From NCBI GenBank assembly GCA_009780015.1, contig WRAW01000002.1, positions 12 through 64,011 on the forward strand: 64,000 nt of DNA, in the 5' to 3' direction. The notes below the pieces were generated by a model that was not told the origin of the DNA, ran no database searches, and saw nothing but the letters and a program-made list of their open reading frames with translations. This document shows, piece after piece, positions 2,575 to 35,241 of this stretch (its first letter is position 1; the number at the start of each line of letters is the position of its first letter). The DNA comes from Defluviitaleaceae bacterium. Lineage in GTDB: Bacteria > Bacillota > Clostridia > Lachnospirales > WRAA01. A program made the position numbers and the translations under genes.

Positions 2575-2737
2575 AGCCTGTTAAGTATCTCACGTTATCA
2601 CCAGATTTGCGGCCAATTTTCCGCATATCTTCGTTGTTTCCTACTAACGTACCTTACAGGTACGCGTCGTAGTCACCGCTTCGACCTGCGAATAATTACC
2701 TGGCAAATCTGGTGATAACGAGACACTAAGCAGGCTC
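2574..2737. repeat. MITE-like palindromic intergenic element, copy A (GAGCCTGTT-type terminal inverted repeats)
   Basis: The roughly 37-nt terminal inverted repeats are gagcctgttaagtatctcacgttatcaccagatttgc and ggcaaatctggtgataacgagacactaagcaggctc. The internal hairpin gcgtacc-ttaca-ggtacgc is shared with copy B. The left end overlaps the TAG stop of paralog 1. Confidence 0.65.
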
Positions 2738-2765
2738 TTATTGAAAAACGATTGGAGTGCGGTTC

Positions 2766-4529: not shown

Positions 4530-4551
4530 CTAAGTGATAGGGGTGCAGTTC

Positions 4552-6282
4552 ATGAAAAGAATTGGTTATGGATTTTGTCTGATATTGGCGCTTGTTGTCA
4601 TTGCTCTTTTGTTGACGGCTTGCGGGGATGAGCAGTCAAACGGCGATGAGTATGTTACGGACATATCGGAAGACGCGGAAGATACGGTATACACGCCGGA
4701 GGAAGGCTATGAATCTGCCGTCGAAGATACATTGTTTATCGACATTCTGGAGCAAATCGAACGTCAGACGCGAGTTGATGAAATGCTTCTTGCCGAACTG
4801 GACAGCGGCGCGTACAGCTTTGACGATCCGCTGGTGGTGCTCGACCCATATGGGATGTCGCCGCTTGCGGCTCTGGCGCTGTTTGTAAGCGACGAACCGA
4901 TGAATATTTCGGTCTATGTACCCGGACGGTCTGAGCTTACAAGCGTCTACTTTACCTTCGACGGCTACAATACAAGGCATGAAGTGCCGATTTATGGACT
5001 GCATCCAGATAAGCTGAACAGGGTGGAGCTTACCGGAAGAACACGCGGCGGCCAATTGCGGAGCGTTATGCTTGAGATACAGACCGATCCGCTGCCGCCG
5101 GAGCTGGCGCAGCACATCCTGATTACGGACTTAGTACAGCCTGAGAGCTATCAGCCCGGGTTTAATTTTACATTCTGGTATAAAACCGCGTTTGATAAGT
5201 ATGGCGAGTATAGATGGTTTTACAATAACTTTGATCTCCTGGTTACGACTCTGTACGATTATCATGGTCACATGCTGTTTGCGGCGGGCGCGGGACTGTT
5301 TACAGAAGGAGACGTTCTCATAATCGAAGCAAACATGCTGGGCAAGATACTGAACGTATACCATTCGCCTTACGGAGCATGTCACGATATCGCGGAAACT
5401 AGCGGGGGAAACTTGATTGTTACCGGAAACCGCGGGGATGTGGCGGAAGACTTTATTTATGAAATAGATGCGGAAACGGGCGAAATAGTTAACAGGCTTG
5501 ATTTGAAGCGTGTATTGCAAAGAACGCGTACATCCGGCTTCCCGGAACATAGTCCGTCCAATTGGTTTCATCATAACGCACTTGTATACTATAATGGAAG
5601 CATTATTGTTTCGGGAAGACATCAATCCGCTGTTGTAAAGCTTTCATGGCCTGATGGCGAAGTTGAATGGATATTGTCCGACCATTCTGGGTGGAATCCC
5701 ATGTTTCAAAGATATCTGCTCACTCCCATCGGCGGAGATTTCGGGTGGAGTTTTGGTCAGCACGCCCCCGTAGTCCTTCCAGACCTTGATAATGACCCGG
5801 ATACAATAGATATTTTGTTATTCGATAATGGCAACGGCAGATTTTACCTTGACAGGGAGCTTCAGCGGGCAATCAGGAACAATGAGGTCGCCATTCCCGA
5901 GAATTTTTCAAGGATGGTGCACTACCGAATAAATGAAAGAACTATGACAATTGAGCAGATCTGGCAGTTTGGTGAAGAATTGGGCGAAGCCTTCTTTGCC
6001 GAATTTATGAGCAGCGCCCAGCCGCTTGAAAACGGAAACAGGCTGGGGGCGTTCGACAGAAGAATATTTATTGACGAGGTTGGCGTTGGTTTTAGTACAA
6101 GCTTTGTTGAAGTTGATTCTTCGGGAAATATTGTTTGGGAAACGTACGCAACAAGTACTGACGGCGTAGGAACATTTAACACTTATCGCGCCGAACGCCG
6201 CCCGCTTTACACCGTAGCCGCCAACGATCTGCGCATCGGCGTACCGGCGAGGGTATTCATCCCAGAGGACAGGCTGCCGTGA
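4552..6282 (+). CDS. Aryl-sulfate sulfotransferase (ASST)-like lipoprotein, paralog 3
   Basis: Taken from ORF 4534..6282. It has a lipobox (LLLTAC-GD) and is co-linear with paralogs 1 and 2 over its whole length. Confidence 0.8.
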   Translation: MKRIGYGFCLILALVVIALLLTACGDEQSNGDEYVTDISEDAEDTVYTPEEGYESAVEDTLFIDILEQIERQTRVDEMLLAELDSGAYSFDDPLVVLDPYGMSPLAALALFVSDEPMNISVYVPGRSELTSVYFTFDGYNTRHEVPIYGLHPDKLNRVELTGRTRGGQLRSVMLEIQTDPLPPELAQHILITDLVQPESYQPGFNFTFWYKTAFDKYGEYRWFYNNFDLLVTTLYDYHGHMLFAAGAGLFTEGDVLIIEANMLGKILNVYHSPYGACHDIAETSGGNLIVTGNRGDVAEDFIYEIDAETGEIVNRLDLKRVLQRTRTSGFPEHSPSNWFHHNALVYYNGSIIVSGRHQSAVVKLSWPDGEVEWILSDHSGWNPMFQRYLLTPIGGDFGWSFGQHAPVVLPDLDNDPDTIDILLFDNGNGRFYLDRELQRAIRNNEVAIPENFSRMVHYRINERTMTIEQIWQFGEELGEAFFAEFMSSAQPLENGNRLGAFDRRIFIDEVGVGFSTSFVEVDSSGNIVWETYATSTDGVGTFNTYRAERRPLYTVAANDLRIGVPARVFIPEDRLP

Positions 6283-6336
6283 GAACGCGGAATAATTGAA
6301 GGGACTTGTTCTCAATAACGAGGGGAGTGCAGTTTT

Positions 6337-6918
6337 ATGAAAATACTGGGTCATAGGCTTTGCCTGTTGTCATTGTTTGTCATGTGCGTACTTTTCGTAA
6401 CCGCGTGCCAGAGCGCTCCGTCAGACGGCGCGGAGGCGGAAGTTGATACAGATATACCATACGTCGCGGACATAAACACGTCTGATATCCGGCAACAAGT
6501 TACCGCCGTAGAATCCGATATGTGGAGGGTAGAGTTGCATAGCGCGGAAACCGCGGAAAGGCTGTCGGAGATGATAGCCACTGTTCAGTATGGCGGCGGC
6601 ATTGTGGAAACGGAGAGCGAGTTTGTGGCGGGGCACGGCAATGTATTCCTGCTGCTGGGGCTCACTATTGAGAAGATTGGGGCGGGCAGGGCTTCCTTCT
6701 CGTGGAATGACGCGCATGTTATAGACAGCGACGGCAATATATTCTACCGCCACCCAAACGATACCTTTTTGGCTCATCTCAGTATTCCGCGCATGAGGGG
6801 TACCGACATCGTGTTTGGGAACGAATCGGGTTATGTATGCTTCGAGATTCCGGCGGGCGCGGACGGGCTACTGTTTGTAGCCGATGAAGGCAATATCATC
6901 ATAGAGGTTCGCCCATAA
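6337..6918 (+). CDS. Lipoprotein with a possible DUF4352-like Ig-fold domain
   Basis: It has a signal peptide and lipobox (LFVTAC-QS). The beta-rich C-terminal region resembles DUF4352. It lies in the same orientation directly after the ASST genes. Confidence 0.5.
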   Translation: MKILGHRLCLLSLFVMCVLFVTACQSAPSDGAEAEVDTDIPYVADINTSDIRQQVTAVESDMWRVELHSAETAERLSEMIATVQYGGGIVETESEFVAGHGNVFLLLGLTIEKIGAGRASFSWNDAHVIDSDGNIFYRHPNDTFLAHLSIPRMRGTDIVFGNESGYVCFEIPAGADGLLFVADEGNIIIEVRP

Positions 6919-6953: not shown

Positions 6954-8225
6954 ATGATATTAACTGCCATCCGCAGGCTTATCAAGGCGTGGAAGCAATA
7001 TGGTCTTGTCGCGACGCTTAGGCTAATCAGCTATCGGCTAAAATCCGACTTAGTCGGAAGAAACACGCATCTGGGAGGCATTGCTGCCGAGATGTACAAC
7101 GAATTGCTGCGAAAGCATCAATCGGGAGAGATTCAAGGTATCGCAATAATCCCATCCGCGTTTGAATTTGACGAGCTTTACAATCAACGAACCATTAATC
7201 TGGCAAAGTATCTCTCCGGCAAAGGGTATGGAGTAATATATGTAGCGTGGCAATGGCATAGGGGAGAAGTTCTGCAGAAGAACTATCAGTACGTATACAA
7301 AAATGTCATACAGGTTCCGCTGTATAGTTTTTCGGAAACTTATTTTCAATTAAAAATATTTTCTGAAATCAACAACAAGAAATATTTGATAATGCTTCCC
7401 GCGAAAATATTTTATGACTTGCTGTTCTTTATGAAGGAACATTGCTTTGACGTTTACTATGACATAATGGACGATTGGGAATGCTTTCACAAGGCAGGGC
7501 AAGCTCCATGGTATAACAAGAGCATCGAGGAAGCCATAGTGCTTAACGCAAACAGAATAACGGCCGTGTCAACGTCACTGGTTCGCAAGTTTTCTCACTT
7601 GAGAACCGATATCGGATGTGTGGGAAATGGTTTCTGTTCGGAGTTGCTGGGTGCCCCAAAAATCGCTTTGGCAGATATCAGGGAAGACGCCGGAATCAAC
7701 ATAGGCTATTTTGGACATCTCACAGACGCGTGGTTTGATTGGCAGCTATTGTTTGAGCTGCTTGAAAAGCATAAGAACGTACACTTGAACATAATAGGCT
7801 ACGGAGAGCCGAACGAAGTGCGTAAAAAGGCTCAAAAGTATGATAATCTCAACCTGGTCGGAAAGATCAGCCCCAGAGAACTGCGTGAGTACGCCGATCA
7901 TTGGCATGTTGCGATAATCCCTTTCAAAAAGTTGGAACTGTCGGAAGCTGTAGACCCGATAAAGATATATGAATATTTATACCTTGATCTGCCTGTTGTC
8001 GCTACGGGAATTCCACATCTAAAAGATTACCCGTATGTAGAAGTTGTGGATAATAATTCTGAGCTGCTGTACAATTCCATAGTTAAGCAATACGAAAAAA
8101 AGCTGGGCAACGAAGTCGACTATTCTGTTATAAGCAGCTTCCTTTCAGATAAGACATGGGATAAGCGATTCGGTGAATTGTTTGAAACTGATTTCCTGTC
8201 CGCGTTGTATAAGGAGGAAGTGTAA
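6954..8225 (+). CDS. Glycosyltransferase (GT-B fold, GT4/TuaH-like)
   Basis: The C-terminal motif IIPFK...SEAVDPIKIYEYLYLDLPVVATG is typical of GT1/GT4 family enzymes. Confidence 0.65.
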   Translation: MILTAIRRLIKAWKQYGLVATLRLISYRLKSDLVGRNTHLGGIAAEMYNELLRKHQSGEIQGIAIIPSAFEFDELYNQRTINLAKYLSGKGYGVIYVAWQWHRGEVLQKNYQYVYKNVIQVPLYSFSETYFQLKIFSEINNKKYLIMLPAKIFYDLLFFMKEHCFDVYYDIMDDWECFHKAGQAPWYNKSIEEAIVLNANRITAVSTSLVRKFSHLRTDIGCVGNGFCSELLGAPKIALADIREDAGINIGYFGHLTDAWFDWQLLFELLEKHKNVHLNIIGYGEPNEVRKKAQKYDNLNLVGKISPRELREYADHWHVAIIPFKKLELSEAVDPIKIYEYLYLDLPVVATGIPHLKDYPYVEVVDNNSELLYNSIVKQYEKKLGNEVDYSVISSFLSDKTWDKRFGELFETDFLSALYKEEV

Positions 8226-9289
8226 TGAGAGTCCTGTGTGTATATAAATATGCCACTGTGGGCGGCGTGGAGCGGGTCATTCTTAATAGGGCTAGGGCTT
8301 TTAAGGAGCACGGTCTGCATGTCAAACAAGATGTTTTCTTTTTCCAAGATTCCGGAGGATTACAGTATTTCCGCAAGTTTATAAACTATTTTCAGCTCGA
8401 AGACCATATTGCGGTAGTCTCGGAGATAGAGGAAAAGAACTATGATTTGATATTTTCGTTTGATACGCCGGAGGTTTTTGAATATGTAAGGGATACGTCG
8501 AATGTTATTGTGGAATGTCATTCTCCTTATAAAGAGTCGCGGGCGTATCTTAAGTCTATTCCTAAGAACGTCGCTAAAATAGTGTCGCCTGGCGAGGCTT
8601 TCATGGAGTCGGTCATACGCGACGAAGTACTGAGCGTTTTTGGAGACAGGCTGTTTGTGCTTCCTAATTTCTATATCAGCAATGCCCATACGAATATACC
8701 GCCGGCAAAGATTTGGGCGAAGAAGCCCATTTGCTATGTTGGCCGCATGGATTCCCTCAAGAATACAAAAGAGTTGCTGGATATTTTCACCATAATGCGT
8801 AAAAAGCTTGACGACGACTATTTTCTCCTGCTTGTCGGGGATGTCCGGCCGCACTATATGGACATCAAGGATACGATAAAGAAATTGCGGGTTGAAGACA
8901 GGGTCGTGTACTTTCGGCCAATTCCTTTTGAGAAAGTAGATGTTTTGTTCACGGCAGTGAAGCTTCACAATGGGATTTTCGTTTCGCCGTCCAGGGGTGA
9001 AAGCTTCGGGCTTTCCGCTCTGGAAGCGATGTCAAACAATGTTCCGGTGCTGCTTTCGGAAATTGAATGTCATAAGCCCTTGATAAACAACGATCCGGCG
9101 TTTCGATATCAACCCGGCGACATACATGAAGCCGTAGCAAAAGTTGAATATATCTCAGACAACTATTACGATTTATCGGTAAAGGTGAGCCAATTTGCGG
9201 CAAAGCATAATAGCGCGTACTTTATCGAGTCTTGGAGAGAATTGTGCGCCGGTACAAAAAATTTGCTTGACACATGCAAGCCTTTTTGA
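8225..9289 (+). CDS. Glycosyltransferase family 4
   Basis: An E-x7-E type motif is present (GESFGLSALEAMSNNVPVLLSE). The start overlaps the stop of the upstream gene (TAATG). Confidence 0.8.
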   Translation: MRVLCVYKYATVGGVERVILNRARAFKEHGLHVKQDVFFFQDSGGLQYFRKFINYFQLEDHIAVVSEIEEKNYDLIFSFDTPEVFEYVRDTSNVIVECHSPYKESRAYLKSIPKNVAKIVSPGEAFMESVIRDEVLSVFGDRLFVLPNFYISNAHTNIPPAKIWAKKPICYVGRMDSLKNTKELLDIFTIMRKKLDDDYFLLLVGDVRPHYMDIKDTIKKLRVEDRVVYFRPIPFEKVDVLFTAVKLHNGIFVSPSRGESFGLSALEAMSNNVPVLLSEIECHKPLINNDPAFRYQPGDIHEAVAKVEYISDNYYDLSVKVSQFAAKHNSAYFIESWRELCAGTKNLLDTCKPF

Positions 9290-9353: not shown

Positions 9354-11024
9354 ATGATAGAATCGCGGCAAAATGTGGGTTCGCCCGCAAAGGGGTTTGT
9401 CCCGCAGATCGTGGAATTAATCATCCCATTGTTGCTGATCGTATTCACGCTATGGCAGGGTTCATACTTCCCGATTCAATTCCTGATGATGACAGCGCTT
9501 CTGCTGCTTGCGTTTATCTTGTTCGGGAAGTCGCTTACCATAACAAAAGAGGCGGCGATGCTGTTCGCGATATCATTGTTATATTGCGTCAGTTTGCTCG
9601 TATTTACGGAAAACCATTACGCCGGATTGATTGAAACGTTGCGCACATTAATTTTTCCTCTGACATTGCTCCTGTTTCTCAATACCGACCCCGGCAAAAT
9701 GGAAAAAGCTCTTTTTATTGCCTTGCTGTACATAGCCGTACTTGGCCTGCTTGAAGTCTCTTCAGTGATATATATTCACGGTGGAGTCGATGAGAGCGTC
9801 GGCCGTTTACACTCGACGATCCAATATGCCAATATGACTGCCTTGCTTATGCTGACCGGCATATTGTATTCAATCAAAAACTATGTTACGAAAAGTAACA
9901 TCTGGAGCTTGTGCTACTGCGCCGTATTTGCCGTCGCGCTGTACCTGACCGGCTCTAGGACAACTCTTTTGATCGCTCTTGCGGTGTGCGCGCTGTATAT
10001 TTACATAATATCGCAGCGGCGTGGGAAAATAATCGTTGTATGCGCGTTGCTGTCCGCGATGGGTGTCATTGCGGCACTCGGCATGTTGACGGAAATCCGC
10101 ATATTCAGGATGTCGGTCTTTGAATCGACCCTGGTTGAGCGCTGGATCACGTTTCAAGACGCGTTTGAAATGCTTCACGGAAGATGGTTTCTCGGGATTG
10201 GAGCGGGTAATTGGCAGGAATGGCAGTTGCGCTTTCAGTCCGCCCCGTACTACGTGAGATATATTCATAACTACTATCTGCAATTGCTGCTTGACGGAGG
10301 GATACTGGCCCCGGCGCTGTTTTGCGCGGCGACGCTTCCCGCGGCTTACAGGGGGATACGCTCAAAGAGTGTGCATGGCGTGATTCTCATAGCCTTCATG
10401 CTCCACTCGCTTTTAGATATCGCTTTCATTTTTGCCGCAGGCGCAATGATAGCCATGTTCTCGCTTTCACGGCTGACCGTCGGCGGTAACACTCTGAATA
10501 TCGGCAGGCTTCGATACGCTGCGGTTGTTCCGCTTCTAGCGGTGACGGTCTTGCAGGGATCCGAACTGCACTCGACAATGGCGGATACGCACCGTGAAAA
10601 CGGAAACTTAGAGGCGTCTATGCGCGGATACAAGGCCGCGCTTGCATTAAATCCGCTTAATACGGATTTGTACTTTCGGATGGCACAGTCGACACTCGAT
10701 ATTGGATTAGCGGAGGAATATGTCCGCGCAGCCATTGAAAGAAATCCAAGAGACTCGCGTTCAATAGCGGCGTTAGCGCAAATTGAATCGCGCCGAGGCA
10801 ACTACGCGGCCGCGCTTGAGTTAAGCGGACGCCTGATTGAGAACCGAAGGTTTTCAGAGGATTACCGGTCACTGCGCAGGGAAATCGCAAGCCATGCGGT
10901 GAACAACGCGATTATCGACTATACGGAATACTGGGCGATATTGGCGGAGCTAGACGCTATTCTGTTGTATGTAAACCCGCTCCATACACAGTTTCACAGA
11001 AGTGAAATTGTTGATGATAATTAG
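9354..11024 (+). CDS. O-antigen ligase (Wzy_C) family membrane protein with a C-terminal TPR region
   Basis: The protein is multi-pass hydrophobic. Wzy_C motifs are present (LTGSRTTLLIAL and IHNYYLQLLLDGGIL). The C-terminus has TPR-like helices (YKAALALNP, ERNPRD). Confidence 0.8.
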   Translation: MIESRQNVGSPAKGFVPQIVELIIPLLLIVFTLWQGSYFPIQFLMMTALLLLAFILFGKSLTITKEAAMLFAISLLYCVSLLVFTENHYAGLIETLRTLIFPLTLLLFLNTDPGKMEKALFIALLYIAVLGLLEVSSVIYIHGGVDESVGRLHSTIQYANMTALLMLTGILYSIKNYVTKSNIWSLCYCAVFAVALYLTGSRTTLLIALAVCALYIYIISQRRGKIIVVCALLSAMGVIAALGMLTEIRIFRMSVFESTLVERWITFQDAFEMLHGRWFLGIGAGNWQEWQLRFQSAPYYVRYIHNYYLQLLLDGGILAPALFCAATLPAAYRGIRSKSVHGVILIAFMLHSLLDIAFIFAAGAMIAMFSLSRLTVGGNTLNIGRLRYAAVVPLLAVTVLQGSELHSTMADTHRENGNLEASMRGYKAALALNPLNTDLYFRMAQSTLDIGLAEEYVRAAIERNPRDSRSIAALAQIESRRGNYAAALELSGRLIENRRFSEDYRSLRREIASHAVNNAIIDYTEYWAILAELDAILLYVNPLHTQFHRSEIVDDN

Positions 11025-11101
11025 AAAGATCAAGAATAGGAGGGAAAAGTACGAAGTTAGCAGTAAATTATAACCCGCAACAACAAACATGAGAGGTGGT
11101 A

Positions 11102-12199
11102 ATGATGAAAGCGCTTATAGCGACATTATTGGTTAAAAAGTCCAGAATTGCTGTTATCGCGGTTGTATTGGCGATGGTTTTCGTGTTTCCGCTTGTTGTA
11201 CCGATAGTCGGAAACGTATCGGCGAATGTATATACTGCGCCGCCAGGTGGAAATGTATCGTCGAATGTATATGTTGAGCCGCCTACAGGTGAGCTCCCTT
11301 CGGTTGATGCTGTGCCGCTTCCTGATGTAGTTGTCGATATCATCACTCCTGAAATTGATTATGTGGCCGTCACAGGCGCTTCAGTGACTCAAGAAGTCGC
11401 GGCTGCGGCTATGGCTGCGGTAGCAGCGACTGCAGCGGAGGCAGCGGCGTCCACAGGCGCGGTAATAACAGCGGTGGGTTCGCCGGTGACTGTGTCCGTC
11501 GCCGAGCCGAATACGGTCGTGAATGTGACTCTCCCGGATGACGTTGACGTATCCGCGATAACTACCATGGCGGATTTCAGAGCCGACGGAAGTCTCGTGC
11601 CTGTTCCGACGCGTGTAGGCAGTGTAATCGTACTCATCAGCGGCGAAGTTACGCTTGTACCGCTGAATGTTGAAGTGAATTTCACGGATATCGACATGGG
11701 CGCGCAGTTTGTGCATGTGACCGATGAGATAAACCTCGCGGCGTCGATGATGATAGTCCAGGGCCGCGGAGGCGGTGTATTTGATCCGTCCGCGCAGGTG
11801 ACCGGAAGAGAAGCTTCGATCATGTTCCTGAGAGCTATGGGCGTTCCGGTGGATTGGAACACAGCTATGGCAACGGCGCAGGCTCAAGGTCTGACAGGCG
11901 GAGCAACCGTCGCGGACGCGCCAATGACTCGTGTAGCGACGGCGCAAATGATTAACAACGCGCTGAACAGCCTTGGCGTGGATATTGAAGTAACTCCGGC
12001 GGAAGCCGCGCAAATACTTGCGGGATTCGCAGACCTCGAAGATTTGACGGATGATGAGCTTGTCGCGCTGGCGGTATGCGCAAGGCTTGGCATTTTCCGC
12101 GGAGCAGGCGGTAATTTAATGAATCCTCAGGGTACGCTTCAACGCAGTCATATGGCCAGCCTCGTGGTAAGATTCCAGGACGTATTCTTGGGTATGTAG
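11102..12199 (+). CDS. Cell-surface protein with two SLH-like domains
   Basis: It has an N-terminal signal or anchor helix. Two SLH-like segments are present (FTDID....MIVQGRGGGVFDPSAQVTGREASIMFLRAMG and FADLEDL..LAVCARLGIFRGAGGNLMNPQGTLQRSHMASLVVRF). The start codon is uncertain (11096, 11102 or 11105). Confidence 0.65.
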   Translation: MMKALIATLLVKKSRIAVIAVVLAMVFVFPLVVPIVGNVSANVYTAPPGGNVSSNVYVEPPTGELPSVDAVPLPDVVVDIITPEIDYVAVTGASVTQEVAAAAMAAVAATAAEAAASTGAVITAVGSPVTVSVAEPNTVVNVTLPDDVDVSAITTMADFRADGSLVPVPTRVGSVIVLISGEVTLVPLNVEVNFTDIDMGAQFVHVTDEINLAASMMIVQGRGGGVFDPSAQVTGREASIMFLRAMGVPVDWNTAMATAQAQGLTGGATVADAPMTRVATAQMINNALNSLGVDIEVTPAEAAQILAGFADLEDLTDDELVALAVCARLGIFRGAGGNLMNPQGTLQRSHMASLVVRFQDVFLGM

Positions 12200-12264: not shown

Positions 12265-12292
12265 ACCGGGCGTTGATAAGACGCCCGGTTTG
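12265..12292 (+). terminator. Candidate intrinsic terminator after the SLH gene
   Basis: The hairpin is accgggcgt-tgataag-acgcccggt, followed by a weak T-run (tttgtgg). Confidence 0.45.
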
Positions 12293-12308
12293 TGGTAGTA
12301 TCAGGGTC

Positions 12309-12524
12309 TAAGAGCCTGTTTAATATCTTTTCACCATTGTCTTGGCGGCTGATTTTCCGCCCTTCGTCGTCCCTTCCTTCTAGCGTACCTTCCAGGTACG
12401 CGTCGTCGTCAGCTCCTCCTACGCTGACGCTTCGATGCTAAACGCGTGCCACCGGCATACAGCATCCTAGAATGGCGAAAAATCAGGCTCGCCAATCCAA
12501 CGGCAAAAAGATATTAAACAGGTA
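12309..12524. repeat. MITE-like palindromic intergenic element, copy B (GAGCCTGTT-type terminal inverted repeats)
   Basis: The roughly 50-nt terminal inverted repeats are taagagcctgtttaatatcttttcaccattg...gctgattttccgcc and ggcgaaaaatcaggc...cggcaaaaagatattaaacaggta. The internal core cttcgtcgt..gcgtaccttccaggtacgcgtcgtcgtca is homologous to copy A. Confidence 0.65.
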
Positions 12525-12544: not shown

Positions 12545-15500
12545 GTGGCTATGGACAGTAAGAACGCCGTATCGGCTACCTGGGACGAAGTTGCGAAGCA
12601 ATATTCCGTAACAATTGACGACGGTGAGTACGAGCTCGCAAACGACATCATTGCCGTACTAAAAAAACACGGAATTGCTCGGGGAAGCAGGCTGCTGGAA
12701 TTGGGCTGCGGAAGCGGGCATCTTTCCGCGTGTCTTAATATGGCCGGCTATCAAACCGACCTTTTGGATTTTAGTCCTGAATCACTGAAAAAGGCTAGTC
12801 AAACATTTGAACAATACGGGCTGCATGGAAACTTCATCCAAGGCGACATAATGCATCTTGACGCTTTCCAGGAAAATGACTACGACCTTGTATGGAACAG
12901 CGGGGTAATGGAGCATTTCGCGGACGACACCATATTTGAGGCATTTAGAAATATAAGGAAAATCGCGCGCCGAAGTATTTTTGTCGCAGTTCCCAATCCG
13001 ATATCGGTTTCTTATCTGCTGATGCGATATATACGCCAATCCCAGCAGGACTGGCCTTACGGAAGGGAGTACCTGCGGTCGGACTATGATAAAGCGATAA
13101 AAGCCGCCGGGTTTGAGGATGTATCGGTTTGTTACCTGGGGAAAGCGGCTACAGGGTATAATTTCTATTTTGCTATGAAGGACGCGGAATTTTGCGACTC
13201 CTATGCGGATATGTTGGAGCGTGGGTTGCTTCCCGAACATGAGAATTATCTTACAGGTTACTTTGCGTCTATTGCTTCCCGCAGATTATTGTCTGATGAA
13301 TTATCGGAGGATGCGCCTTCGTTTGACGCCGAATCCATAACCGGAATTTACGAATTGAACGCGGAACGCTACGGGCTTGCAAAGCAACTGAGCAAGGTAC
13401 GTGAAACGCTGGGTGAGGCCGCAGCGCGTGAGCAGGAGCATATTGCTAATATAGCGGAAACGGAATCAGAGCGCAAGAAACTCGAGAATGAATTGGAATA
13501 CGCAAATGCGGATTGCCGGCGACTCAGGAGCGAATTAGAAGACTCAAATATAGACCGTCAACAACTCAAGAACCAATTAGAAAGCTCAAATATATATCGT
13601 CAACAACTCAAGAGCCAATTAGAAAGCTCAAATATAGATCGTCAACAACTCAAGAGCCAATTAGAAAGCTCAAATATAGATCGTCAACAACTCAAGAGCC
13701 AATTAGAAAGCTCAAATATAGATCGTCAACAACTCAAGAGCCAATTAGAAAGTTCAAATATAGATCATCAACAACTCAAGTCCGAGCTGGAACATGCAGC
13801 TACAGAACATAATCAAGCTTTAAATAAGCTTGGGAACGAGTTGAAAATTACAAATACGGAACGTCTGCATCTCAGGGACAAGCTGGAAAGCGAACGAGGA
13901 AACGCTCAACAGATTATCATTAATGCCTTCAACGCAACAGACCGCCTGTTTAAAATGCGGATATTTAAGATGCTTCATCTGCTGAGCAGGATTATTAACC
14001 AGCTTATAAAGGGCGGGTGGGCTGAGAAAAAAGGCTTTTTCCGCTGGCTTTGCGCGCATATTATGCGCCGCCCGTACAGCGACAGGGGATATAACCCGCT
14101 TCAAATGATTACGGACGCTTTGAGCGGGGAGCATACACATTCAAAATATATTCAGACTTCTTACAAGGACGATTATAAATCCGAATATACTTCTACAAGC
14201 TCTGACAGCGATATTTCTGATGTAAGCAGTTGGGAATTCTTCGGCGCGGAGCCTCTTATATCGGTGATGATACCGGTTTACAACCATGCCGGGTTGATAA
14301 GCGCGGCTATTGATTCCGTACGCGATCAAACATACAGGAATTGGGAGCTTATAATCCTCGACGACGGGTCTGAAGATAATCTCGAAGAGGTCTTGGAGCA
14401 ATACTCCGGCGATCCTCGCATAAGCGTATACAAACAGAAGAATCAAAAACTCCCGACGGCGCTTACGCACCTTCACTCTCTTGCCAACGGTGAGTTTTTG
14501 ACCTGGACTTCGGCCGACAATATAATGCTGCCGGATATGCTGAAGGCGCTTGCTTCTTCGTTGCTTGAGAATATTGACTGCTCGTTAGTATACGCGGATG
14601 TAGCCGTAATTGACGAACATGGAGATTACTATACAGGCGAATATCGCGACAGGGAAAGAGACCCTGAAAGGCCATATATAATCAGATTGCCCAGGGACGC
14701 TTCGGCGCTGGGCGCCGAGCCCGACAACTTCATTAACGCCTGTTTTCTGTACAGAAGAGAGGCGTCCGGCGCGCTGGGGGGCAGATATTCCTCTGACCTG
14801 GAAGGACTGGAAGATTACGACTATTGGCTGCGCATGTCACGAACCGGGAAGGTAATGCATATTGGAAACAATGAACCCCTATACCTTTACAGAGTACACA
14901 AAAACACAATGAGTGAAGATTTATTGAAAAATAAGCAAGAGCAGCACTTTGCCAGAGCTAAGAAGCTGATTCGGTTTGAGGGGAAAAGGGCGGAATTTTC
15001 AAAGAAGCCTTGGCAGATTGAAATTAAGTGCGACAGTGTATCTCTTATGGTTGACAGCTATGTTTTCTCAGATAAGAAGATTGCAATATATTCGGATAAG
15101 AGCGATGTCGGGGAAACGGCAGGCACAGAGCTTCCTGTCGTTTATGACGGACATAATTTTAATATTACGTTTAAAAACACAAGCTTGAGCATCGCGACCG
15201 GGGCGAATGTTAATCCGTTGTGTGTAAAGGCGAGGTATATTAAGCCGGACTTACCGTATTGGGAGTATACGGCGATGGGCGGCAGGAAGGTTATAGGTAT
15301 TCATTCGGATATCGCGCTGATTAACGTCGATGAATTTTCAAAAATCATTTCCCGAAACGATGATTGCTTTTTTGTCCTTTGCGATACCTCCGACGGCTCC
15401 GATAAGGCGAAGCGGCTGGCTTCAAAATTCGAGAACTGTGTCTACGTAGGCAAGCGGGAATTAGGTGAGCCGTACTATATGTACTCTTCCTGGGATGCGA

Positions 15501-17017
15501 TAATGCTTCCCCCTGTTGAAAATGAGTTCGCAAAATATAATTTTGTCGAAGAACGGGTGCTTGCCTGGTCATGCGGTCTATGGCTTATGTACCCTGGAAG
15601 CTTGGTAAATTTTGAGGCCATGCCATGTTGCTGCGCGTATTATCAGAATGATAAGCTGCCCAAGGTATGGAAGTTTGCTTCTCCGCGCAGCAATGTGAAA
15701 CTGATTAACTCATATATCGATGAATTTTCAGTTGAAGGGAGAATCAGAAAGCTTTGCGGTTTGTGCAACGCCATTACCGAGGAACATTGGCTTGACAGAC
15801 CGCCATTCTCGAAATACGCCATACAAGAGGAGCTTCCCGCAAAAGTCGAAAAATATGCAAACAGCTTTATACCGGCAGGATATATCGGCTTTATGGTAGA
15901 TACCTTGGACAAGGGCGGTCTTGAGCAGGTAACTGCGCTTCTTGCGATTAGAATGAAGGACAGAGGGCTGCCCGTTAAAATTCTCTGCACATCGTCGGGC
16001 GGGGCCGTTGCGGATCAGGTTGCCGCCGACGGCATAGAGGTTGCTGTTTTTGACGGCGACAGGGATAGGATTGTAAGGTATTTGAAAGATAACGTTCCTG
16101 ATGTCATAAGCAGCCACTATGTTCAGAACTTCTACGATGTTCCCAGGTCGCTGGGTATTCCGGTTGTTGAAACTATTCATAACATGTACGCATATTTCGA
16201 TTACAATGACTGGAAGAGAGAAGCCGTTAGGTCTAAGTGCTTTGACGCTATGATAGCCGTTTCCGATACCGTCAAAGAATATTATCTCAGGCACAACCCT
16301 TCATATGGAAGAAATATAGAAGTCGTAGGCAACGCTGCGGACATCAGGAGAACCGGCAGCGAAACCGGACGCCTGTTCAGGCGGAGTTTTGATATTTTGC
16401 CGAATAAATTTGTATTCCTCAATGTAGCTTCGTTTGACGGAAGGAAGAATCATTTCGGGCTCTTGTCCGCGTTCGAGCAGTTCTATAAAGCCGTAGGCAA
16501 TGATGCTGTTCTGCTTATTGCGGGCAATATACTCGATAGTAAATACTACGGAAGAGTTATCGAATATATAGATACGCTACACTGCAAGAGCAATGTGGTC
16601 TGTCTTGACTATATAGATCGTATCGGGGAGGTATTGAACATGGCCGACGCGTTTGTAATACCTTCATTTATCGAGGGATGGAGTATTGCGGCCACAGAAG
16701 CCGCTTACGCGGGCTTACCTGTAATCCATAGCAATTGTGGCAGCGGCAGGGAGCTTTGCGGGCCTGATAATGAGTACGGTGCGCTCATTTCGCACCCTCT
16801 GGGCGGCCTGGAGAACATTAACCGGGAAAATATCAATTCAGCTATATATGAGGCGGAACAAAAAAATACACGTGAATTGGTAGACGCAATGGCCGTCATG
16901 TACAACAACAAGGAGATTTGGAGCAAGAAGCGGCCGTCTGTCCGAGCCCGCGCGCTATGCGAGTTTAATGTTGACAGAATGGTTGACGGATATCTTAGAG
17001 TGTTGGAGGCGAGATAA
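12545..17017 (+). CDS. Giant multidomain glycan-synthesis protein: class I SAM methyltransferase, tandem-repeat helical linker, GT2, uncharacterised domain, GT4
   Basis: The N-terminus has the SAM motif LELGCGSGHLS. The linker has six copies of a 14-aa repeat (QLESSNIDRQQLKS). The GT2 signature is ISVMIPVYNHAG..DQTYRNWELIILDDGSED, with DYDYWLRM further on. The C-terminal GT4 motif is EGWSIAATEAAYAGLPVI. Confidence 0.8.
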   Translation: MAMDSKNAVSATWDEVAKQYSVTIDDGEYELANDIIAVLKKHGIARGSRLLELGCGSGHLSACLNMAGYQTDLLDFSPESLKKASQTFEQYGLHGNFIQGDIMHLDAFQENDYDLVWNSGVMEHFADDTIFEAFRNIRKIARRSIFVAVPNPISVSYLLMRYIRQSQQDWPYGREYLRSDYDKAIKAAGFEDVSVCYLGKAATGYNFYFAMKDAEFCDSYADMLERGLLPEHENYLTGYFASIASRRLLSDELSEDAPSFDAESITGIYELNAERYGLAKQLSKVRETLGEAAAREQEHIANIAETESERKKLENELEYANADCRRLRSELEDSNIDRQQLKNQLESSNIYRQQLKSQLESSNIDRQQLKSQLESSNIDRQQLKSQLESSNIDRQQLKSQLESSNIDHQQLKSELEHAATEHNQALNKLGNELKITNTERLHLRDKLESERGNAQQIIINAFNATDRLFKMRIFKMLHLLSRIINQLIKGGWAEKKGFFRWLCAHIMRRPYSDRGYNPLQMITDALSGEHTHSKYIQTSYKDDYKSEYTSTSSDSDISDVSSWEFFGAEPLISVMIPVYNHAGLISAAIDSVRDQTYRNWELIILDDGSEDNLEEVLEQYSGDPRISVYKQKNQKLPTALTHLHSLANGEFLTWTSADNIMLPDMLKALASSLLENIDCSLVYADVAVIDEHGDYYTGEYRDRERDPERPYIIRLPRDASALGAEPDNFINACFLYRREASGALGGRYSSDLEGLEDYDYWLRMSRTGKVMHIGNNEPLYLYRVHKNTMSEDLLKNKQEQHFARAKKLIRFEGKRAEFSKKPWQIEIKCDSVSLMVDSYVFSDKKIAIYSDKSDVGETAGTELPVVYDGHNFNITFKNTSLSIATGANVNPLCVKARYIKPDLPYWEYTAMGGRKVIGIHSDIALINVDEFSKIISRNDDCFFVLCDTSDGSDKAKRLASKFENCVYVGKRELGEPYYMYSSWDAIMLPPVENEFAKYNFVEERVLAWSCGLWLMYPGSLVNFEAMPCCCAYYQNDKLPKVWKFASPRSNVKLINSYIDEFSVEGRIRKLCGLCNAITEEHWLDRPPFSKYAIQEELPAKVEKYANSFIPAGYIGFMVDTLDKGGLEQVTALLAIRMKDRGLPVKILCTSSGGAVADQVAADGIEVAVFDGDRDRIVRYLKDNVPDVISSHYVQNFYDVPRSLGIPVVETIHNMYAYFDYNDWKREAVRSKCFDAMIAVSDTVKEYYLRHNPSYGRNIEVVGNAADIRRTGSETGRLFRRSFDILPNKFVFLNVASFDGRKNHFGLLSAFEQFYKAVGNDAVLLIAGNILDSKYYGRVIEYIDTLHCKSNVVCLDYIDRIGEVLNMADAFVIPSFIEGWSIAATEAAYAGLPVIHSNCGSGRELCGPDNEYGALISHPLGGLENINRENINSAIYEAEQKNTRELVDAMAVMYNNKEIWSKKRPSVRARALCEFNVDRMVDGYLRVLEAR
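13532..13780 (+). repeat. Near-perfect 42-bp tandem repeat, about 6 units, in frame inside the 1490-aa gene
   Basis: The unit caacaactcaagagccaattagaaagctcaaatatagatcgt is repeated head to tail with very few substitutions. Confidence 0.9.
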
Positions 17018-17021
17018 GCTT

Positions 17022-18860
17022 ATGCTGAAAAGAATCCCCGATTTACGTCATAATTTGGCGTTTAATTGCATATTGCTGGCCTTGCTTGGCGTTATTACAG
17101 GGCTGCTGTCATTGCTGCTCGGAGCGTCTACGTTTGGCCTGCCAATGTTTGAGACATACTTCCACTCGCCGATGGTGATATTGCTTAACCTGCTGCCGCC
17201 CGTCGTCCTTATATTCCTGATGTATTTTGTAAGCGGGCGCGCGTGGGTGGCGTTTTCCTTTCCGTCGCTTGTGGTGCTGGGGCTTTCCGCGGTGCAGTTT
17301 TTCAAGGTTCAGATGCGGGGAGACGTGTTTGTGGCGTCCGACATTCCGCTTATGCGCGAGGCGTTCTATGTCGTCGGGGCGGAATTCCACCTGACTCTGC
17401 ACTGGGAGCTGGTTCTGACCATTGCGGCGTATATCTGCGGGGTCGTGTTCTGTGTGTTTGTGCTGAAGCGCGAAATAAGCAGGGTTTCGGCACGCGTCGC
17501 CGGGAGCGCCGTACTTGTAACCGTGGTCGTGCTGCTGTACTCGTTTGTTTACAGCGACGCGGGTCTTTATGACAGGACGGAGGGCGGCTACCCCGCCAGC
17601 CCGTGGTCGTTTTCGCAAAGATACATATCGCGGGGCTTCGTGTACCCGTTCATTCACAGCATCAGGTACGCTTTTCCGGCCGCGCCTGCCGGCTTCGACA
17701 GAGACGAGGCAAGGCGGATGCTTGCCGAGTTCGAGTGCGGCGTGATTCCAGACGACAAGAAGATCAATGTCATTACCGTCATGCTCGAGTCATACATGGA
17801 CCTCTCGGCGTTCGGCACGCTCGAGTTCCTTGTGGACGTATACGGCCCGCTGCACAGGCTGCAGGCAGAGTCGGTTTCCGGTATGCTTATAAACAACGTA
17901 ACCGTCGGCAAGACGATCGACACCGAACGCTTGTTCCTGACAGGGTATACCCGCCTGACCCGCTTTGGCCCCGCGGTCATAGACTATTGGCGCTATTTGG
18001 GGGCCGAACACTACAGCTCGGCGGTAAACTCCTACGTACACTACCTTAACTCGCAGGGCTTCCACACCGAAGGCTATACGGCCGCCGCGGGCTGGTTTTA
18101 CGACAGAGCCGCGGTCAACAGACACCTTGGCTTCGCTGAATATTTCTTCCTGGAAGACTTCGAGAACAGCGACCAAACCGACGAATTCTTCTTTGATACG
18201 GTAATGGCGCTGTATCAGGCCCGCGACAGGGGCACACCCTATTTCAGCTTCAACCTCTCGGCCCAGAACCACGGCCCCTACGACAGCGCCGACACGACCG
18301 AGCCGCACAAGATCGCCCGGGGCGACCTGTCCTTCGAGGCTTTCAACATTCTCAACAATTACCTTACCGGAATCTACGACACCACCTGGCGTCTTGAAAG
18401 CTTCATAAACCAACTGCGCTACGATCCCGATCCGGTGGTCGTGCTTGTCGCGGGCGACCACACGCCATGGATGGGCAACGACGGCTTCGTATACGCCGAG
18501 CTTGGAATAAACGTTGACGAGACCACGCCCGAAGGCTTCCTGAATCTTTATTCAACGCCATACTTCATATGGGCCAACTACGCCGCGAGAGCCGTCATCG
18601 GAAACGACACATCCGGCTACGGAGGCAGCTTTTCGCCCAGCTTCCTGATGGGCAAGCTCTTCGGCGTCATCGGGTGGGACGGCGAAGCCTATATGCAAGC
18701 TCTCGCCGAACTCAAAACCCAGGTCAGCGTCATAAGCGCCCCCACCGGAATGTTCCGCGAACACGGCGTACTGACGCCCGCCCTCTCTCCTGAGGCGCAA
18801 GCCTCCTACAACCGGCTGCGAATGATGGAATTCTACAGACTGCACAATTTTGCGCATTAA
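17022..18860 (+). CDS. LTA synthase / sulfatase-like family membrane protein (phosphoglycerol or sugar-phosphate transferase type)
   Basis: It has about five N-terminal transmembrane helices followed by an extracellular alkaline-phosphatase-superfamily domain (INVITVMLESYMD, VLVAGDHTPW). The ATG at 17022 follows the stop of the upstream gene. Confidence 0.65.
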   Translation: MLKRIPDLRHNLAFNCILLALLGVITGLLSLLLGASTFGLPMFETYFHSPMVILLNLLPPVVLIFLMYFVSGRAWVAFSFPSLVVLGLSAVQFFKVQMRGDVFVASDIPLMREAFYVVGAEFHLTLHWELVLTIAAYICGVVFCVFVLKREISRVSARVAGSAVLVTVVVLLYSFVYSDAGLYDRTEGGYPASPWSFSQRYISRGFVYPFIHSIRYAFPAAPAGFDRDEARRMLAEFECGVIPDDKKINVITVMLESYMDLSAFGTLEFLVDVYGPLHRLQAESVSGMLINNVTVGKTIDTERLFLTGYTRLTRFGPAVIDYWRYLGAEHYSSAVNSYVHYLNSQGFHTEGYTAAAGWFYDRAAVNRHLGFAEYFFLEDFENSDQTDEFFFDTVMALYQARDRGTPYFSFNLSAQNHGPYDSADTTEPHKIARGDLSFEAFNILNNYLTGIYDTTWRLESFINQLRYDPDPVVVLVAGDHTPWMGNDGFVYAELGINVDETTPEGFLNLYSTPYFIWANYAARAVIGNDTSGYGGSFSPSFLMGKLFGVIGWDGEAYMQALAELKTQVSVISAPTGMFREHGVLTPALSPEAQASYNRLRMMEFYRLHNFAH

Positions 18861-35170: not shown

Positions 35171-35241
35171 CGAAAAATTAAATAATATTATTGACAAACT
35201 ATATTTTCATGTGTGAATATATTACGAAGAGGTGTATTGGG

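What the first reader, a model, noticed from the sequence alone, without database searches (positions are those of the whole stretch)
12545..17017. 1490-aa methyltransferase / repeat helix / GT2 / unknown / GT4 protein: possible molecular ruler for glycan chain length, with a slippage-prone 42-bp repeat
**Architecture.** An N-terminal SAM methyltransferase is separated from two glycosyltransferase modules by a long helical region. The core of that region is six nearly identical 14-residue (two-heptad) units, encoded by an almost perfect 42-bp tandem DNA repeat at 13532-13780.

**Precedent.** In ABC-transporter-dependent O-antigen systems, the E. coli O9a WbdD kinase-methyltransferase and Klebsiella WbbB use a coiled coil between a chain-terminating domain and a polymerising GT as a ruler that sets polymer length.

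**Inference.** By analogy, this single polypeptide could both polymerise and methyl-cap a wall glycopolymer. The near-perfect DNA repeat would then allow in-frame gain or loss of 14-aa units, changing the chain length the ruler sets. The analogy is inference; only the domain order and the repeat are seen directly.
Basis: partly seen in the sequence, partly recalled or inferred. Interest (0 to 1): 0.65.

Follow-up and report, generated by a model that had tools for sequence, protein, structure and literature searches.

The report
Repeat-tunable ruler in a glycan synthase
A single large enzyme from a gut-type Clostridia bacterium joins a sugar-chain-building unit to a chain-capping methyltransferase through a long helical spacer, and a near-perfect DNA repeat inside that spacer differs in copy number between near-identical strains, so surface-sugar chain length may be naturally adjustable in steps.

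Summary
One ORF (12551-17017, 1488 aa) encodes MTase, a ~210-residue helical linker, an amphipathic helix, GT2, a rare GT-B-like domain and GT4. A 42-bp x 6.2 tandem repeat (13522-13780) encodes part of the linker.

The interpretation passed every test I could run:
- AlphaFold2 predicts the repeat region as confident helix.
- A strain that is 99.95% identical over 24 kb differs structurally only by loss of exactly two units.
- In 5 of 8 near-identical clusters of the family, all internal indels lie in the linker. Six of the seven inside the helical part are multiples of seven residues.
- Full-length homologs sit directly downstream of wzm and a wzt carrying the cap-reading Wzt_C module.

The architecture is already known: K. 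pneumoniae O7 ORF6, WbbB, WbdD and Geobacillus WsaE. This is therefore a new variant of a known kind.

What appears new is the recurrent, repeat-driven natural variation in spacer length.

Caveats:
- The window holds no ABC exporter.
- The 4-versus-6 copy difference comes from short-read assemblies and could be a collapse artefact.
- The methyl cap, coiled-coil oligomerisation and any effect on chain length are inferred, not shown.

The parts
12551..17017 (+). Whole gene: 1488-aa MTase / helical spacer / amphipathic anchor / GT2 / GT-B-like domain / GT4. An alternative GTG start at 12545 would give 1490 aa.
   Evidence: ORF list; identical database proteins start at the ATG; no TM segment or signal peptide.
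12551..13273 (+). N-terminal class-I SAM methyltransferase (aa 1-241), the proposed chain terminator.
   Evidence: Pfam Methyltransf_25/11/12/23. AF2 Rossmann fold with pLDDT 85-97. Foldseek top hits are class-I MTases, including the sugar O-MTases RebM and AtmM. Motif I ELGxGSG and the acidic LLDFS motif are invariant in 16 homologs.
13328..13954 (+). Long helical spacer (aa 260-468), the proposed coiled-coil ruler. Up to about 31 nm if fully extended.
   Evidence: AF2 helices 260-331 and 336-468. The spacer has 1 Pro in 241 residues and 40% E/K/R/D/Q. Heptad a/d contrast is z=2.9 versus shuffles. Length calculation.
13522..13780 (+). 42-bp x 6.2 tandem repeat encoding 14-aa (two-heptad) units of the spacer. 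This is the copy-number-variable element.
   Evidence: TRF; unit listing. L001 has 4 units; L024 has 6.
13958..14167 (+). Conserved post-coil segment (aa 470-539) with the cationic amphipathic helix RIFKMLHLLSRIINQLIK, the proposed in-plane membrane anchor.
   Evidence: muH 0.72 and net charge +4. The segment length is near-constant in the family at 89-99 aa. It is conserved in P0023, which has a different GT module.
14261..14914 (+). GT2 (GT-A fold) glycosyltransferase module.
   Evidence: Pfam PF00535, E=1.3e-25. PDB sequence hits are chondroitin synthase K4CP, GalT1 and SpsA. The (D/N)DGSxD and TSADN motifs are invariant.
14936..15874 (+). Uncharacterised middle domain (aa 796-1108), alpha/beta and weakly GT-B-like. 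It is a rare partner of GT2 modules.
   Evidence: No Pfam match. AF2 pLDDT 69.5. Foldseek hits PimA (E=6e-6, TM 0.46), WaaG, DGD2, MshA, GumK and MurG. Only 55 representative clusters in 1.84 billion proteins. Architectures are GT2-X(-GT4) or standalone.
15875..17014 (+). GT4 (GT-B fold, retaining type) glycosyltransferase module.
   Evidence: Pfam Glyco_transf_4 plus Glycos_transf_1. The EX7E motif (EGWSIAATE) is invariant.
12314..12523 (+). About 210-nt highly stable hairpin in the 5' leader, between a promoter-like site (12273-12301) and the RBS.
   Evidence: MFE -92.4 kcal/mol, z=-6.7. Inverted repeats; promoter scan; no Rfam family; single copy in the window.
17022..18860 (+). LtaS-like (sulfatase-fold, 5-TM) protein starting 5 nt after the stop codon. 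It is a conserved neighbour.
   Evidence: Pfam Sulfatase; TM segments. 69% identical to the neighbour of P0023 in L009; also present after homologs in L002 and near L016. Start coordinate from the L001 gene call.
9354..11024 (+). Wzy_C + TPR polytopic membrane protein, a WsfB/PglL-type O-oligosaccharyltransferase or ligase candidate.
   Evidence: Pfam Wzy_C plus TPR; 11 TM-like segments. The review states that WsfB and PglL combine Wzy_C with a C-terminal TPR.
11096..12199 (+). Small SLH-domain cell-wall protein immediately upstream, a possible glycan acceptor.
   Evidence: Pfam SLH; N-terminal hydrophobic segment.
6954..9289 (+). Two GT4 glycosyltransferases (GT4a 6954-8225, GT4b 8225-9289), candidate adaptor or side-chain transferases.
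   Evidence: Pfam. 64% and 59% identical to neighbours of P0023 in L009. GT4a is weakly TuaH-like.
787..6918 (+). Three arylsulfotransferase paralogs plus the lipoprotein-like orf193. The association with the MTase-coil-GT module is conserved in this lineage.
   Evidence: Pfam ASST. 58-68% (ASST) and 49% (orf193) identity to L009 genes.

Best explanation
The gene encodes a cytoplasmic, membrane-peripheral 'polymerase-ruler-terminator' for a cell-surface glycan. It is of the same kind as Klebsiella WbbB, K. pneumoniae O7 ORF6 and Geobacillus WsaE.

Proposed mechanism:
- The GT2, GT-B-like and GT4 modules sit at the membrane, held there by a cationic amphipathic helix. They extend a lipid-linked repeat-unit glycan.
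- The N-terminal SAM methyltransferase is held away from them by a helical, probably oligomeric coiled-coil spacer of about 210 residues.
- Only chains long enough to reach the methyltransferase are O-methylated at the non-reducing end. That cap stops elongation.
- In relatives, the cap would be read by the Wzt_C module of the adjacent ABC exporter.

The 42-bp repeat encodes six 14-residue (two-heptad) units of the spacer. Slippage or unequal recombination adds or removes whole units in frame and in heptad register. Each unit changes the spacer by about 2.1 nm, and so would change the modal chain length.

Shown here: domain order, intact catalytic motifs, predicted helicity, the repeat, copy-number differences, and genomic context in relatives.

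Inferred: the methyl cap, oligomerisation, ruler function, and the effect of copy number on chain length.
For: Architecture:
- Domain order from Pfam.
- Catalytic motifs invariant across 16 homologs.
- No TM segment or signal peptide.
- Spacer predicted as long helices with pLDDT 74-94.
- Spacer is proline-poor and charged, with 3.5-residue periodicity in most homologs. Heptad contrast is z=2.9.
- An amphipathic +4 helix follows the spacer, with muH 0.72.

Spacer variability:
- Linker length ranges from 137 to 266 aa across the family. The next segment is fixed at 89-99 aa.
- L001 is 99.95% identical over 24.4 kb, and its only indel is an 84-bp loss of two units.
- L024 independently confirms six units.
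- In 5 of 8 near-identical clusters, all 8 internal indels lie in the linker (P about 3e-7 for the linker's 15% share of length). Six are multiples of 7 aa (7, 7, 7, 28, 28, 84). All are exact tandem-unit gains or losses.
- Separate 21-bp repeats occur in the linkers of L002 and L006.

Context:
- wzm and wzt(+Wzt_C) lie directly upstream in L002-L008. Related Wzm and Wzt nucleotide-binding-domain genes lie upstream of more distant relatives of the N-terminal module in several phyla.

Precedents:
- WbdD coil insertions or truncations raise or lower modal chain length (PMC5082667).
- O7 ORF6 is MTase, coiled coil and two GTs, and the coiled coil is 'a characteristic marker' of this strategy (PMC11231755).
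- WsaE has an N-terminal cap methyltransferase plus two GT domains, with wzm-wzt-wsaE adjacent (PMC2943079).
Against: - No wzm/wzt, Wzx, priming transferase or sugar-nucleotide genes are present in the 64-kb window. The closest genome relative, L009, also lacks an adjacent exporter.
- The best heptad register of the repeat puts L, L, S, R in the core, so only about half is hydrophobic and coiled-coil propensity is moderate.
- The AF2 monomer model breaks the helix at 332-335. This could mean a fold-back hairpin rather than one straight rod, which would change the geometry.
- The MTase is a generic class-I fold with no specific similarity to WbdD.
- All copy-number data come from short-read metagenome assemblies. 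The 157-bp perfectly periodic stretch could be collapsed by an iterative-k assembler.
Confidence: 0.65

Rival explanations
1. The helical region is only an oligomerisation or scaffolding spacer, and its exact length has no functional read-out. On this view the repeat polymorphism is neutral. Tandem repeats slip, and only heptad-multiple changes survive because they keep the coiled coil in register.
For: Linker length varies almost two-fold across the family (137-266 aa), with no correlated change that I could see. The repeat core is half polar. [quoted passage not shown]
Against: In both systems where it was tested (WbdD, WbbB), spacer length sets chain length. Indels are absent from about 1,200 other residues but recur in the spacer in 5 of 8 lineages. 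That pattern at least shows the spacer is unusually free, or selected, to vary.
Confidence: 0.2
2. The 4-versus-6 difference in this species is an assembly artefact. The MEGAHIT contig behind L001 would have collapsed the three identical units, and real copy number would be fixed.
For: Units 3-5 are identical, giving a 157-bp perfectly periodic stretch that is longer than typical reads. L001 is a 'k141' short-read contig. Two other assemblies agree on six units. No further close relatives could be found.
Against: The same phenomenon occurs in other lineages where the arrays are short enough (about 70-105 bp) to be spanned by single reads. There the variants are seen on several independent contigs: P0047 on 6, P0077 on 6 and P0061 on 5. 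P0082's nine units have diverged from each other, so they cannot be an artefactual expansion.
Confidence: 0.25
3. In this lineage the enzyme does not build a capped, ABC-exported polymer. Instead it either glycosylates a protein directly (for example the adjacent SLH or collagen-like proteins), or it methylates internal sugars of each repeat unit. On this view the coil serves only for assembly.
For: No ABC exporter is present in the window or in L009. A collagen-like protein and an SLH protein are adjacent. The MTase fold gives no substrate specificity.
Against: A Wzy_C+TPR ligase/O-OTase in the same gene string implies a lipid-linked glycan delivered to the outer face. The N-terminal module is 43% identical to relatives, and full-length homologs are embedded in wzm-wzt(Wzt_C) operons. 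Placing the MTase at the far end of a long spacer is the signature of terminators.
Confidence: 0.12

Closest known systems
K. pneumoniae O7 ORF6 (PMC11231755)
   Same: One polypeptide with an N-terminal methyltransferase, a central coiled coil and two C-terminal GT modules. [quoted passage not shown]
   Different: ORF6 also has a kinase and a CBM-like domain and installs methyl-phosphate. Its GT modules are two GT2s, and it is Gram-negative LPS. Here there is no kinase-sized insert between the MTase and the coil (only an 18-residue loop), the polymerase is GT2 + rare domain + GT4, and the spacer carries a near-perfect DNA repeat.
WbbB of K. pneumoniae O12 / Raoultella terrigena
   Same: A single protein that integrates polymerisation (two GTs), termination and a coiled-coil ruler (described).
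   Different: The WbbB terminator is a beta-Kdo transferase (GT99), not a methyltransferase. There was no detectable sequence match in the PDB search.
WbdD / WbdA of E. coli O9a
   Same: A methyl-type cap, an enzyme held about 20 nm from the membrane by a coiled coil, an amphipathic membrane anchor at the base, and a cap read by the Wzt CBM. Engineered coil insertions or deletions shift modal chain length.
   Different: In WbdD the polymerase is a separate protein recruited to WbdD, and WbdD also has a kinase. The MTase here is not specifically similar to WbdD. Naturally repeat-encoded coil-length variation was not found described for WbdD.
WsaE of Geobacillus stearothermophilus NRS 2004/3a (S-layer glycan)
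   Same: A Gram-positive protein with an N-terminal cap O-methyltransferase plus two GT domains in one soluble polypeptide. wzm-wzt-wsaE are adjacent, as in homolog loci L002-L008. The cluster also has a Wzy_C O-OTase, and the related WsfB has Wzy_C+TPR like window gene 9354-11024.
   Different: WsaE's GTs are rhamnosyltransferases, and rml genes are in its cluster; none are in this window. WsaE-like Paenibacillaceae proteins (P0037, P0032) match only the N-terminal third at about 30% identity. Chain-length control in WsaE is unresolved.

Membership tests
Coiled-coil terminator/ruler proteins of ABC-transporter-dependent glycan assembly (WbdD / WbbB / O7 ORF6 type) | Chain-terminating enzyme domain at the end of the coil distal from the membrane and polymerase | tested here: met
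   The SAM-MTase with intact motifs is N-terminal, separated by about 210 helical residues from the amphipathic helix and GT modules. Terminator activity itself is inferred.
Coiled-coil terminator/ruler proteins of ABC-transporter-dependent glycan assembly (WbdD / WbbB / O7 ORF6 type) | Extended oligomeric coiled coil | tested here: inconclusive
   The spacer is predicted as long confident helices. It shows heptad periodicity, and indels in the helical part are nearly all heptad multiples. Only a monomer was modelled, the helix breaks at 332-335, and the repeat core is half polar. Oligomeric state is not testable here.
Coiled-coil terminator/ruler proteins of ABC-transporter-dependent glycan assembly (WbdD / WbbB / O7 ORF6 type) | Membrane-proximal amphipathic anchor and polymerase GT modules at the other end of the coil | tested here: met
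   Helix 470-487 has muH 0.72 and charge +4. GT2 and GT4 have invariant catalytic motifs.
Coiled-coil terminator/ruler proteins of ABC-transporter-dependent glycan assembly (WbdD / WbbB / O7 ORF6 type) | Linked Wzm/Wzt exporter whose Wzt carries a cap-binding CBM | tested here: not met
   tblastn with three Wzm/Wzt pairs and Pfam scans of all large ORFs find none in the 64-kb window. The feature is met in homolog loci L002-L008. The exporter could be elsewhere in this genome.
Coiled-coil terminator/ruler proteins of ABC-transporter-dependent glycan assembly (WbdD / WbbB / O7 ORF6 type) | Coil length determines modal glycan chain length | not testable with these tools
   This needs glycan analysis of copy-number variants.
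WsaE-type S-layer glycan synthase / slg cluster | N-terminal O-methyltransferase fused to two glycosyltransferase domains | tested here: met
WsaE-type S-layer glycan synthase / slg cluster | Cluster with a Wzy_C O-oligosaccharyltransferase (with or without TPR) and a cell-surface acceptor protein | tested here: met
   A Wzy_C+TPR protein (9354-11024) and an SLH protein (11096-12199) lie directly upstream. The acceptor role is inferred.
WsaE-type S-layer glycan synthase / slg cluster | rml genes / rhamnosyltransferase specificity, wzm-wzt and the WsaP-type primer in the cluster | tested here: not met
   None of these are in the window.
Contingency (simple-sequence) loci giving ON/OFF phase variation | Repeat unit not divisible by three, so copy changes shift the reading frame | tested here: not met
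   The unit is 42 bp, so every copy change is in frame. Any effect is a change of length, not ON/OFF switching.

The most novel reading that the evidence does not exclude
The ruler is a length-type contingency locus. Slippage in 21- or 42-bp, heptad-phased repeats would give gut Clostridia heritable, reversible, quantised changes in surface-glycan chain length, about 2 nm per 14-aa unit. That would create within-population diversity in chain length, for example against phage or host recognition. On this reading the repeats arose independently in several lineages because the trait is selected.
Probability: 0.3. Interest if true: 0.8.

Novelty: new variant of a known kind. Interest (0 to 1): 0.6.

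Why it matters
Coiled-coil rulers are the accepted explanation for chain-length control in ABC-transporter-dependent glycans. So far they rest on engineered insertions and deletions in two Gram-negative proteins.

This locus, and four other lineages of its family, offers naturally occurring allelic series that differ only in the number of heptad-phased units. That turns two questions into a direct comparison of near-isogenic strains or simple constructs:
- Does ruler length set chain length outside Proteobacteria?
- Do bacteria tune it in nature?

The family also extends the class to uncultured gut Clostridia. It flags a rare uncharacterised domain that accompanies GT2 modules and may be a new glycosyltransferase-like module.

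Tried and rejected
Searches that found nothing:
- Scans for close relatives in GTDB species genomes (single protein).
- Scans in JGI metagenome contigs (exact 44-mer; protein patterns). Copy-number data for this species therefore stay at three assemblies.
- The PDB sequence search found no WbdD or WbbB match.
- An exact look-up of P0045 found no gene with exactly this product on record.
- The Hagelueken 2015 paper is not held, so a review was cited instead. The Mann et al. 2019 survey is also not held.

Ideas considered and dropped:
- I considered that the 17-bp perfect inverted repeat upstream marks an invertible promoter. The arms are part of one long imperfect hairpin, and three independent assemblies share the same orientation. 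Rfam gives nothing for it.
- ON/OFF phase variation is excluded because the unit is 42 bp.
- I considered a surface-exposed antigenic repeat. The protein has no signal peptide or TM segment.
- The database name 'hyaluronan synthase' on homolog P0047 is a generic GT2-based label and was not adopted.

Full report
**1. Observation**

The ORF at 12545..17017 (+) is real. Identical database proteins begin at the ATG at 12551, giving 1488 aa. That start also lies at a better distance from the RBS AGAGAGGAAAAG.

Pfam places a class-I SAM methyltransferase at residues 37-194, a GT2 domain at 573-790 and a GT4 domain at 1124-1487. Nothing matches between about 800 and 1120.

Tandem Repeats Finder reports a single array at 13522-13780: period 42, 6.2 copies, 94% matches and no indels. 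It is the highest-scoring tandem repeat in the whole window. Units 3-5 are identical at DNA level and the edge units carry 2-5 substitutions.

**2. Anatomy of the protein**

A family alignment of 16 full-length homologs (34-41% identity, 1406-1655 aa) shows these parts:
- A strongly conserved MTase.
- A variable linker.
- A conserved segment of about 90 residues.
- The GT2 domain.
- A conserved middle domain.
- The GT4 domain.

Catalytic signatures are invariant in all 16 sequences:
- MTase motif I, ELGxGSG.
- The acidic LLDFS motif.
- (D/N)DGSxD and TSADN in GT2.
- EX7E in GT4.

The protein has no signal peptide or transmembrane segment.

AlphaFold2 on residues 1-566 with the family alignment gives:
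- A confident MTase fold.
- An 18-residue low-confidence loop.
- Two long helices, 260-331 and 336-468, with block pLDDT 74-94. The repeat units (about 325-411) lie within these.
- Three shorter helices after that.

Helix 470-487 (RIFKMLHLLSRIINQLIK) has a hydrophobic moment of 0.72 and net charge +4. That is typical of an in-plane membrane anchor.

The middle domain (796-1108) models as an alpha/beta fold at moderate confidence (pLDDT 69.5). It gives weak but consistent Foldseek matches to GT-B glycosyltransferases: PimA at E=6e-6 and TM 0.46, then WaaG, DGD2, MshA, GumK and MurG.

A profile search of 1.84 billion representative proteins finds this domain in only 55 clusters. It almost always follows a GT2 domain directly, is usually followed by GT4, and is occasionally standalone. 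It is a rare, uncharacterised module. It may be a third, divergent GT, but this is held at low confidence.

**3. Is the linker a coiled-coil spacer?**

Across the family the linker ranges from 137 to 266 residues. The next segment, down to the GT2, is fixed at 89-99 residues.

Linkers contain 0-3 prolines and are 36-48% E/K/R/D/Q. Most show their strongest hydropathy periodicity at 3.5-3.6 residues. For the window protein, the heptad a/d contrast of the linker exceeds shuffles by z=2.9.

The best register of the repeat puts L, L, S, R in the core, so its coiled-coil propensity is moderate rather than textbook.

The monomer model breaks the helix at 332-335. I cannot tell whether this reflects a true hairpin or the usual fold-back of a chain that really pairs with other copies.

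If fully extended, 209 helical residues span about 31 nm, and one 14-residue unit about 2.1 nm.

**4. Copy-number variation**

The protein's 90%-identity cluster has three members:
- Two have 1488 aa and differ by one substitution.
- One has 1460 aa. It differs by one substitution plus an exact 28-residue deletion inside the array.

At DNA level, the contig carrying the short allele (L001, ENA ERZ27257297) is colinear with the window over 24.4 kb, with 9 SNPs. Its only indel is the 84-bp loss of two of the three identical units. A third independent assembly (L024, JGI 3300010369, 1 SNP in 6.5 kb) has the same six units as the window.

The 157-bp perfectly periodic stretch exceeds typical read length, and L001 is a MEGAHIT contig. 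A collapse artefact therefore cannot be excluded for this one comparison.

The wider family removes most of that doubt. Among eight near-identical clusters, five contain full-length members that differ by internal indels. All eight such indels lie in the MTase-GT2 linker. The linker is about 15% of the protein, so this placement by chance has P about 3e-7.

Of the eight indels:
- Six are multiples of seven residues: 7, 7, 7, 28, 28 and 84.
- One is a 4-residue deletion in more diverged members.
- One is a 9-residue duplication in the loop before the helix.

Each is an exact gain or loss of a tandem unit, and the unit sequences are unrelated between lineages:
- QLKSQLESSNIDRQ in the window.
- ELQKENKELEENSR in P0005 (3 units) versus P0082 (9 units).
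- AQNQEYL / EQNKKYA in the P0007 group.
- EKEQLHE in P0008 versus P0077.
- A 28-residue unit in P0010 versus P0061.

Several of these arrays are short enough to be spanned by single reads, and the variants recur on multiple contigs. P0082's nine units have diverged from each other, so they cannot be an assembly expansion. At DNA level, separate 21-bp repeats sit in the linkers of L002 and L006.

The conclusion is that heptad-phased tandem repeats have arisen repeatedly in this spacer, and that their number differs between close strains.

**5. Genomic context**

In the loci of three full-length homologs, the gene lies immediately downstream of an ABC2_membrane gene (Wzm) and an ABC ATPase carrying the Wzt_C carbohydrate-binding domain. 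These are:
- P0003, from an uncultured Blautia MAG.
- P0012.
- P0008.

A UDP-GlcNAc 2-epimerase and several GT2 genes lie upstream of these. LtaS-like proteins lie downstream in some of them.

tblastn with these Wzm and Wzt proteins also finds related pairs directly upstream of more distant relatives of the N-terminal module. These occur in other Clostridia, a Gammaproteobacterium and a Planctomycete. In those cases only the nucleotide-binding domain of Wzt aligns.

The window is different. No Wzm/Wzt, Wzx, priming transferase or sugar-nucleotide gene is present anywhere in its 64 kb. Instead the gene is preceded by:
- Three arylsulfotransferases.
- A lipoprotein-like ORF.
- Two GT4 genes.
- A Wzy_C+TPR polytopic membrane protein.
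- A small SLH-domain protein.

It is followed, five bases after its stop codon, by an LtaS-like protein and then by a collagen-repeat protein.

The closest genome relative is an Oscillospiraceae MAG (L009). It shares the arylsulfotransferases, the small ORF, both GT4s and the LtaS-like protein at 49-69% identity. These lie next to an 875-aa protein, P0023.

P0023 has the same MTase, a long linker and the same amphipathic segment almost verbatim. Its C-terminal module is a different one, carrying only GT4-type Pfam families. L009 also has no adjacent exporter.

The N-terminal MTase-spacer-anchor unit therefore behaves as a portable module fused to different polymerases. The 2024 study of Klebsiella O4 and O7 reported the same for orthologs of the O7 terminator.

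**6. Mechanism**

The best-supported reading is a polymerase-ruler-terminator.
- The GT modules, held at the membrane by the amphipathic helix, extend a lipid-linked glycan.
- The methyltransferase at the far end of the spacer can only reach, and cap, chains above a minimum length.
- The cap ends elongation and, in relatives, licenses export through the Wzt_C-bearing transporter.
- A Wzy_C+TPR protein, the domain pair of the S-layer O-oligosaccharyltransferase WsfB, could then transfer the glycan to a surface acceptor such as the adjacent SLH protein.
- The LtaS-like enzyme probably decorates the glycan outside the cell. This is from my own knowledge of LtaS-family glycerol-phosphate transferases such as GacH and was not tested here.

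On this reading each repeat unit changes the spacer by about 2.1 nm, which is a few sugar residues.

The steps shown here are the anatomy, the predicted helicity, the variation and the context in relatives. The methyl cap, the oligomeric state, the ruler function and the phenotypic effect of copy number are inferred.

**7. Comparison with known systems**

The concept and the architecture are established.
- WbdD of E. coli O9a is a trimer whose kinase-methyltransferase is held about 200 Å from the membrane by a coiled coil. Insertions or truncations raise or lower modal chain length.
- WbbB of Klebsiella O12 puts terminator, coil and two polymerase GTs in one chain.
- K. pneumoniae O7 ORF6 is an N-terminal methyltransferase(-kinase), coiled coil and two GT2 modules. 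The authors call the coiled coil a characteristic marker of the strategy.
- WsaE of Geobacillus is the Gram-positive precedent: an N-terminal 2-O-methyltransferase plus two rhamnosyltransferase domains, encoded right after wzm-wzt. Its chain-length determinant is unresolved.

The present protein differs from these in five ways:
- Its polymerase composition is GT2 + rare domain + GT4.
- It has no kinase.
- Its lineage is uncultured Oscillospiraceae-like Clostridia.
- In this genome it is not linked to an exporter.
- Its spacer is encoded by a near-perfect DNA repeat that varies between strains.

Two full-text searches for natural, repeat-driven variation of such rulers found nothing relevant. 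That is absence of evidence within the held library only.

**8. Verdict**

The kind of system is known, so this is a new variant of a known kind rather than a new kind.

Its interest lies in the recurrent, heptad-phased, strain-variable repeats confined to the ruler. These make the ruler hypothesis directly testable with natural alleles, and they raise the possibility that chain length is a tunable trait in gut Clostridia.

Noticed in passing
window 12314-12523 (promoter-like site at 12273-12301): The 5' leader of the gene folds into a hairpin of about 210 nt. MFE is -92.4 kcal/mol and z=-6.7 against 200 shuffles. It ends just before the RBS. It is single-copy in the window, has no Rfam match, and is unchanged in two other assemblies (9 SNPs in 24.4 kb and 1 in 6.5 kb, none checked against this stretch). 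It could be a regulatory or stabilising leader, or a palindromic insertion.
   Followed up: partly
window 787-6918; L009 1032-8699: Three arylsulfotransferase (ASST) paralogs and a lipoprotein-like 193-aa ORF are conserved at 49-68% identity next to the MTase-coil-GT gene in an Oscillospiraceae MAG. This hints that extracellular sulfation belongs to the same surface-glycan pathway in this lineage.
   Followed up: partly
window 14936-15874 (aa 796-1108 of the protein): This is a rare uncharacterised domain, found in 55 representative clusters among 1.84 billion proteins. It nearly always follows a GT2 domain, is sometimes standalone, and has a weak GT-B-like predicted fold and about 33 invariant residues. 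It may be a new GT-like family.
   Followed up: partly
window 19011-20597: This gene encodes a collagen-like (G-x-y; GENGVN-type) repeat protein with an N-terminal hydrophobic segment, encoded by 9/36/54-bp tandem repeats. It has no length difference between the window and L001.
   Followed up: no
window 32453-36120: A complete MmeI-type (Type IIL) restriction-modification enzyme with all five MmeI Pfam domains, followed by a DUF488 protein.
   Followed up: no
homologs P0002, P0006, P0008, P0013, P0014 (e.g. L006 10001-14863): A subset of family members (1620-1655 aa) carries a second methyltransferase-like domain of about 210 residues, N-terminal to the conserved one. This suggests a double modification of the chain end in those lineages.
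   Followed up: no
L004 14336-15771; L006 16726-19650: Homolog loci also contain UbiA-family prenyltransferase + HAD phosphatase + GtrA-like genes and DUF2142 membrane proteins. This suggests additional extracytoplasmic glycosylation from a polyprenyl-phosphate sugar donor.
   Followed up: no
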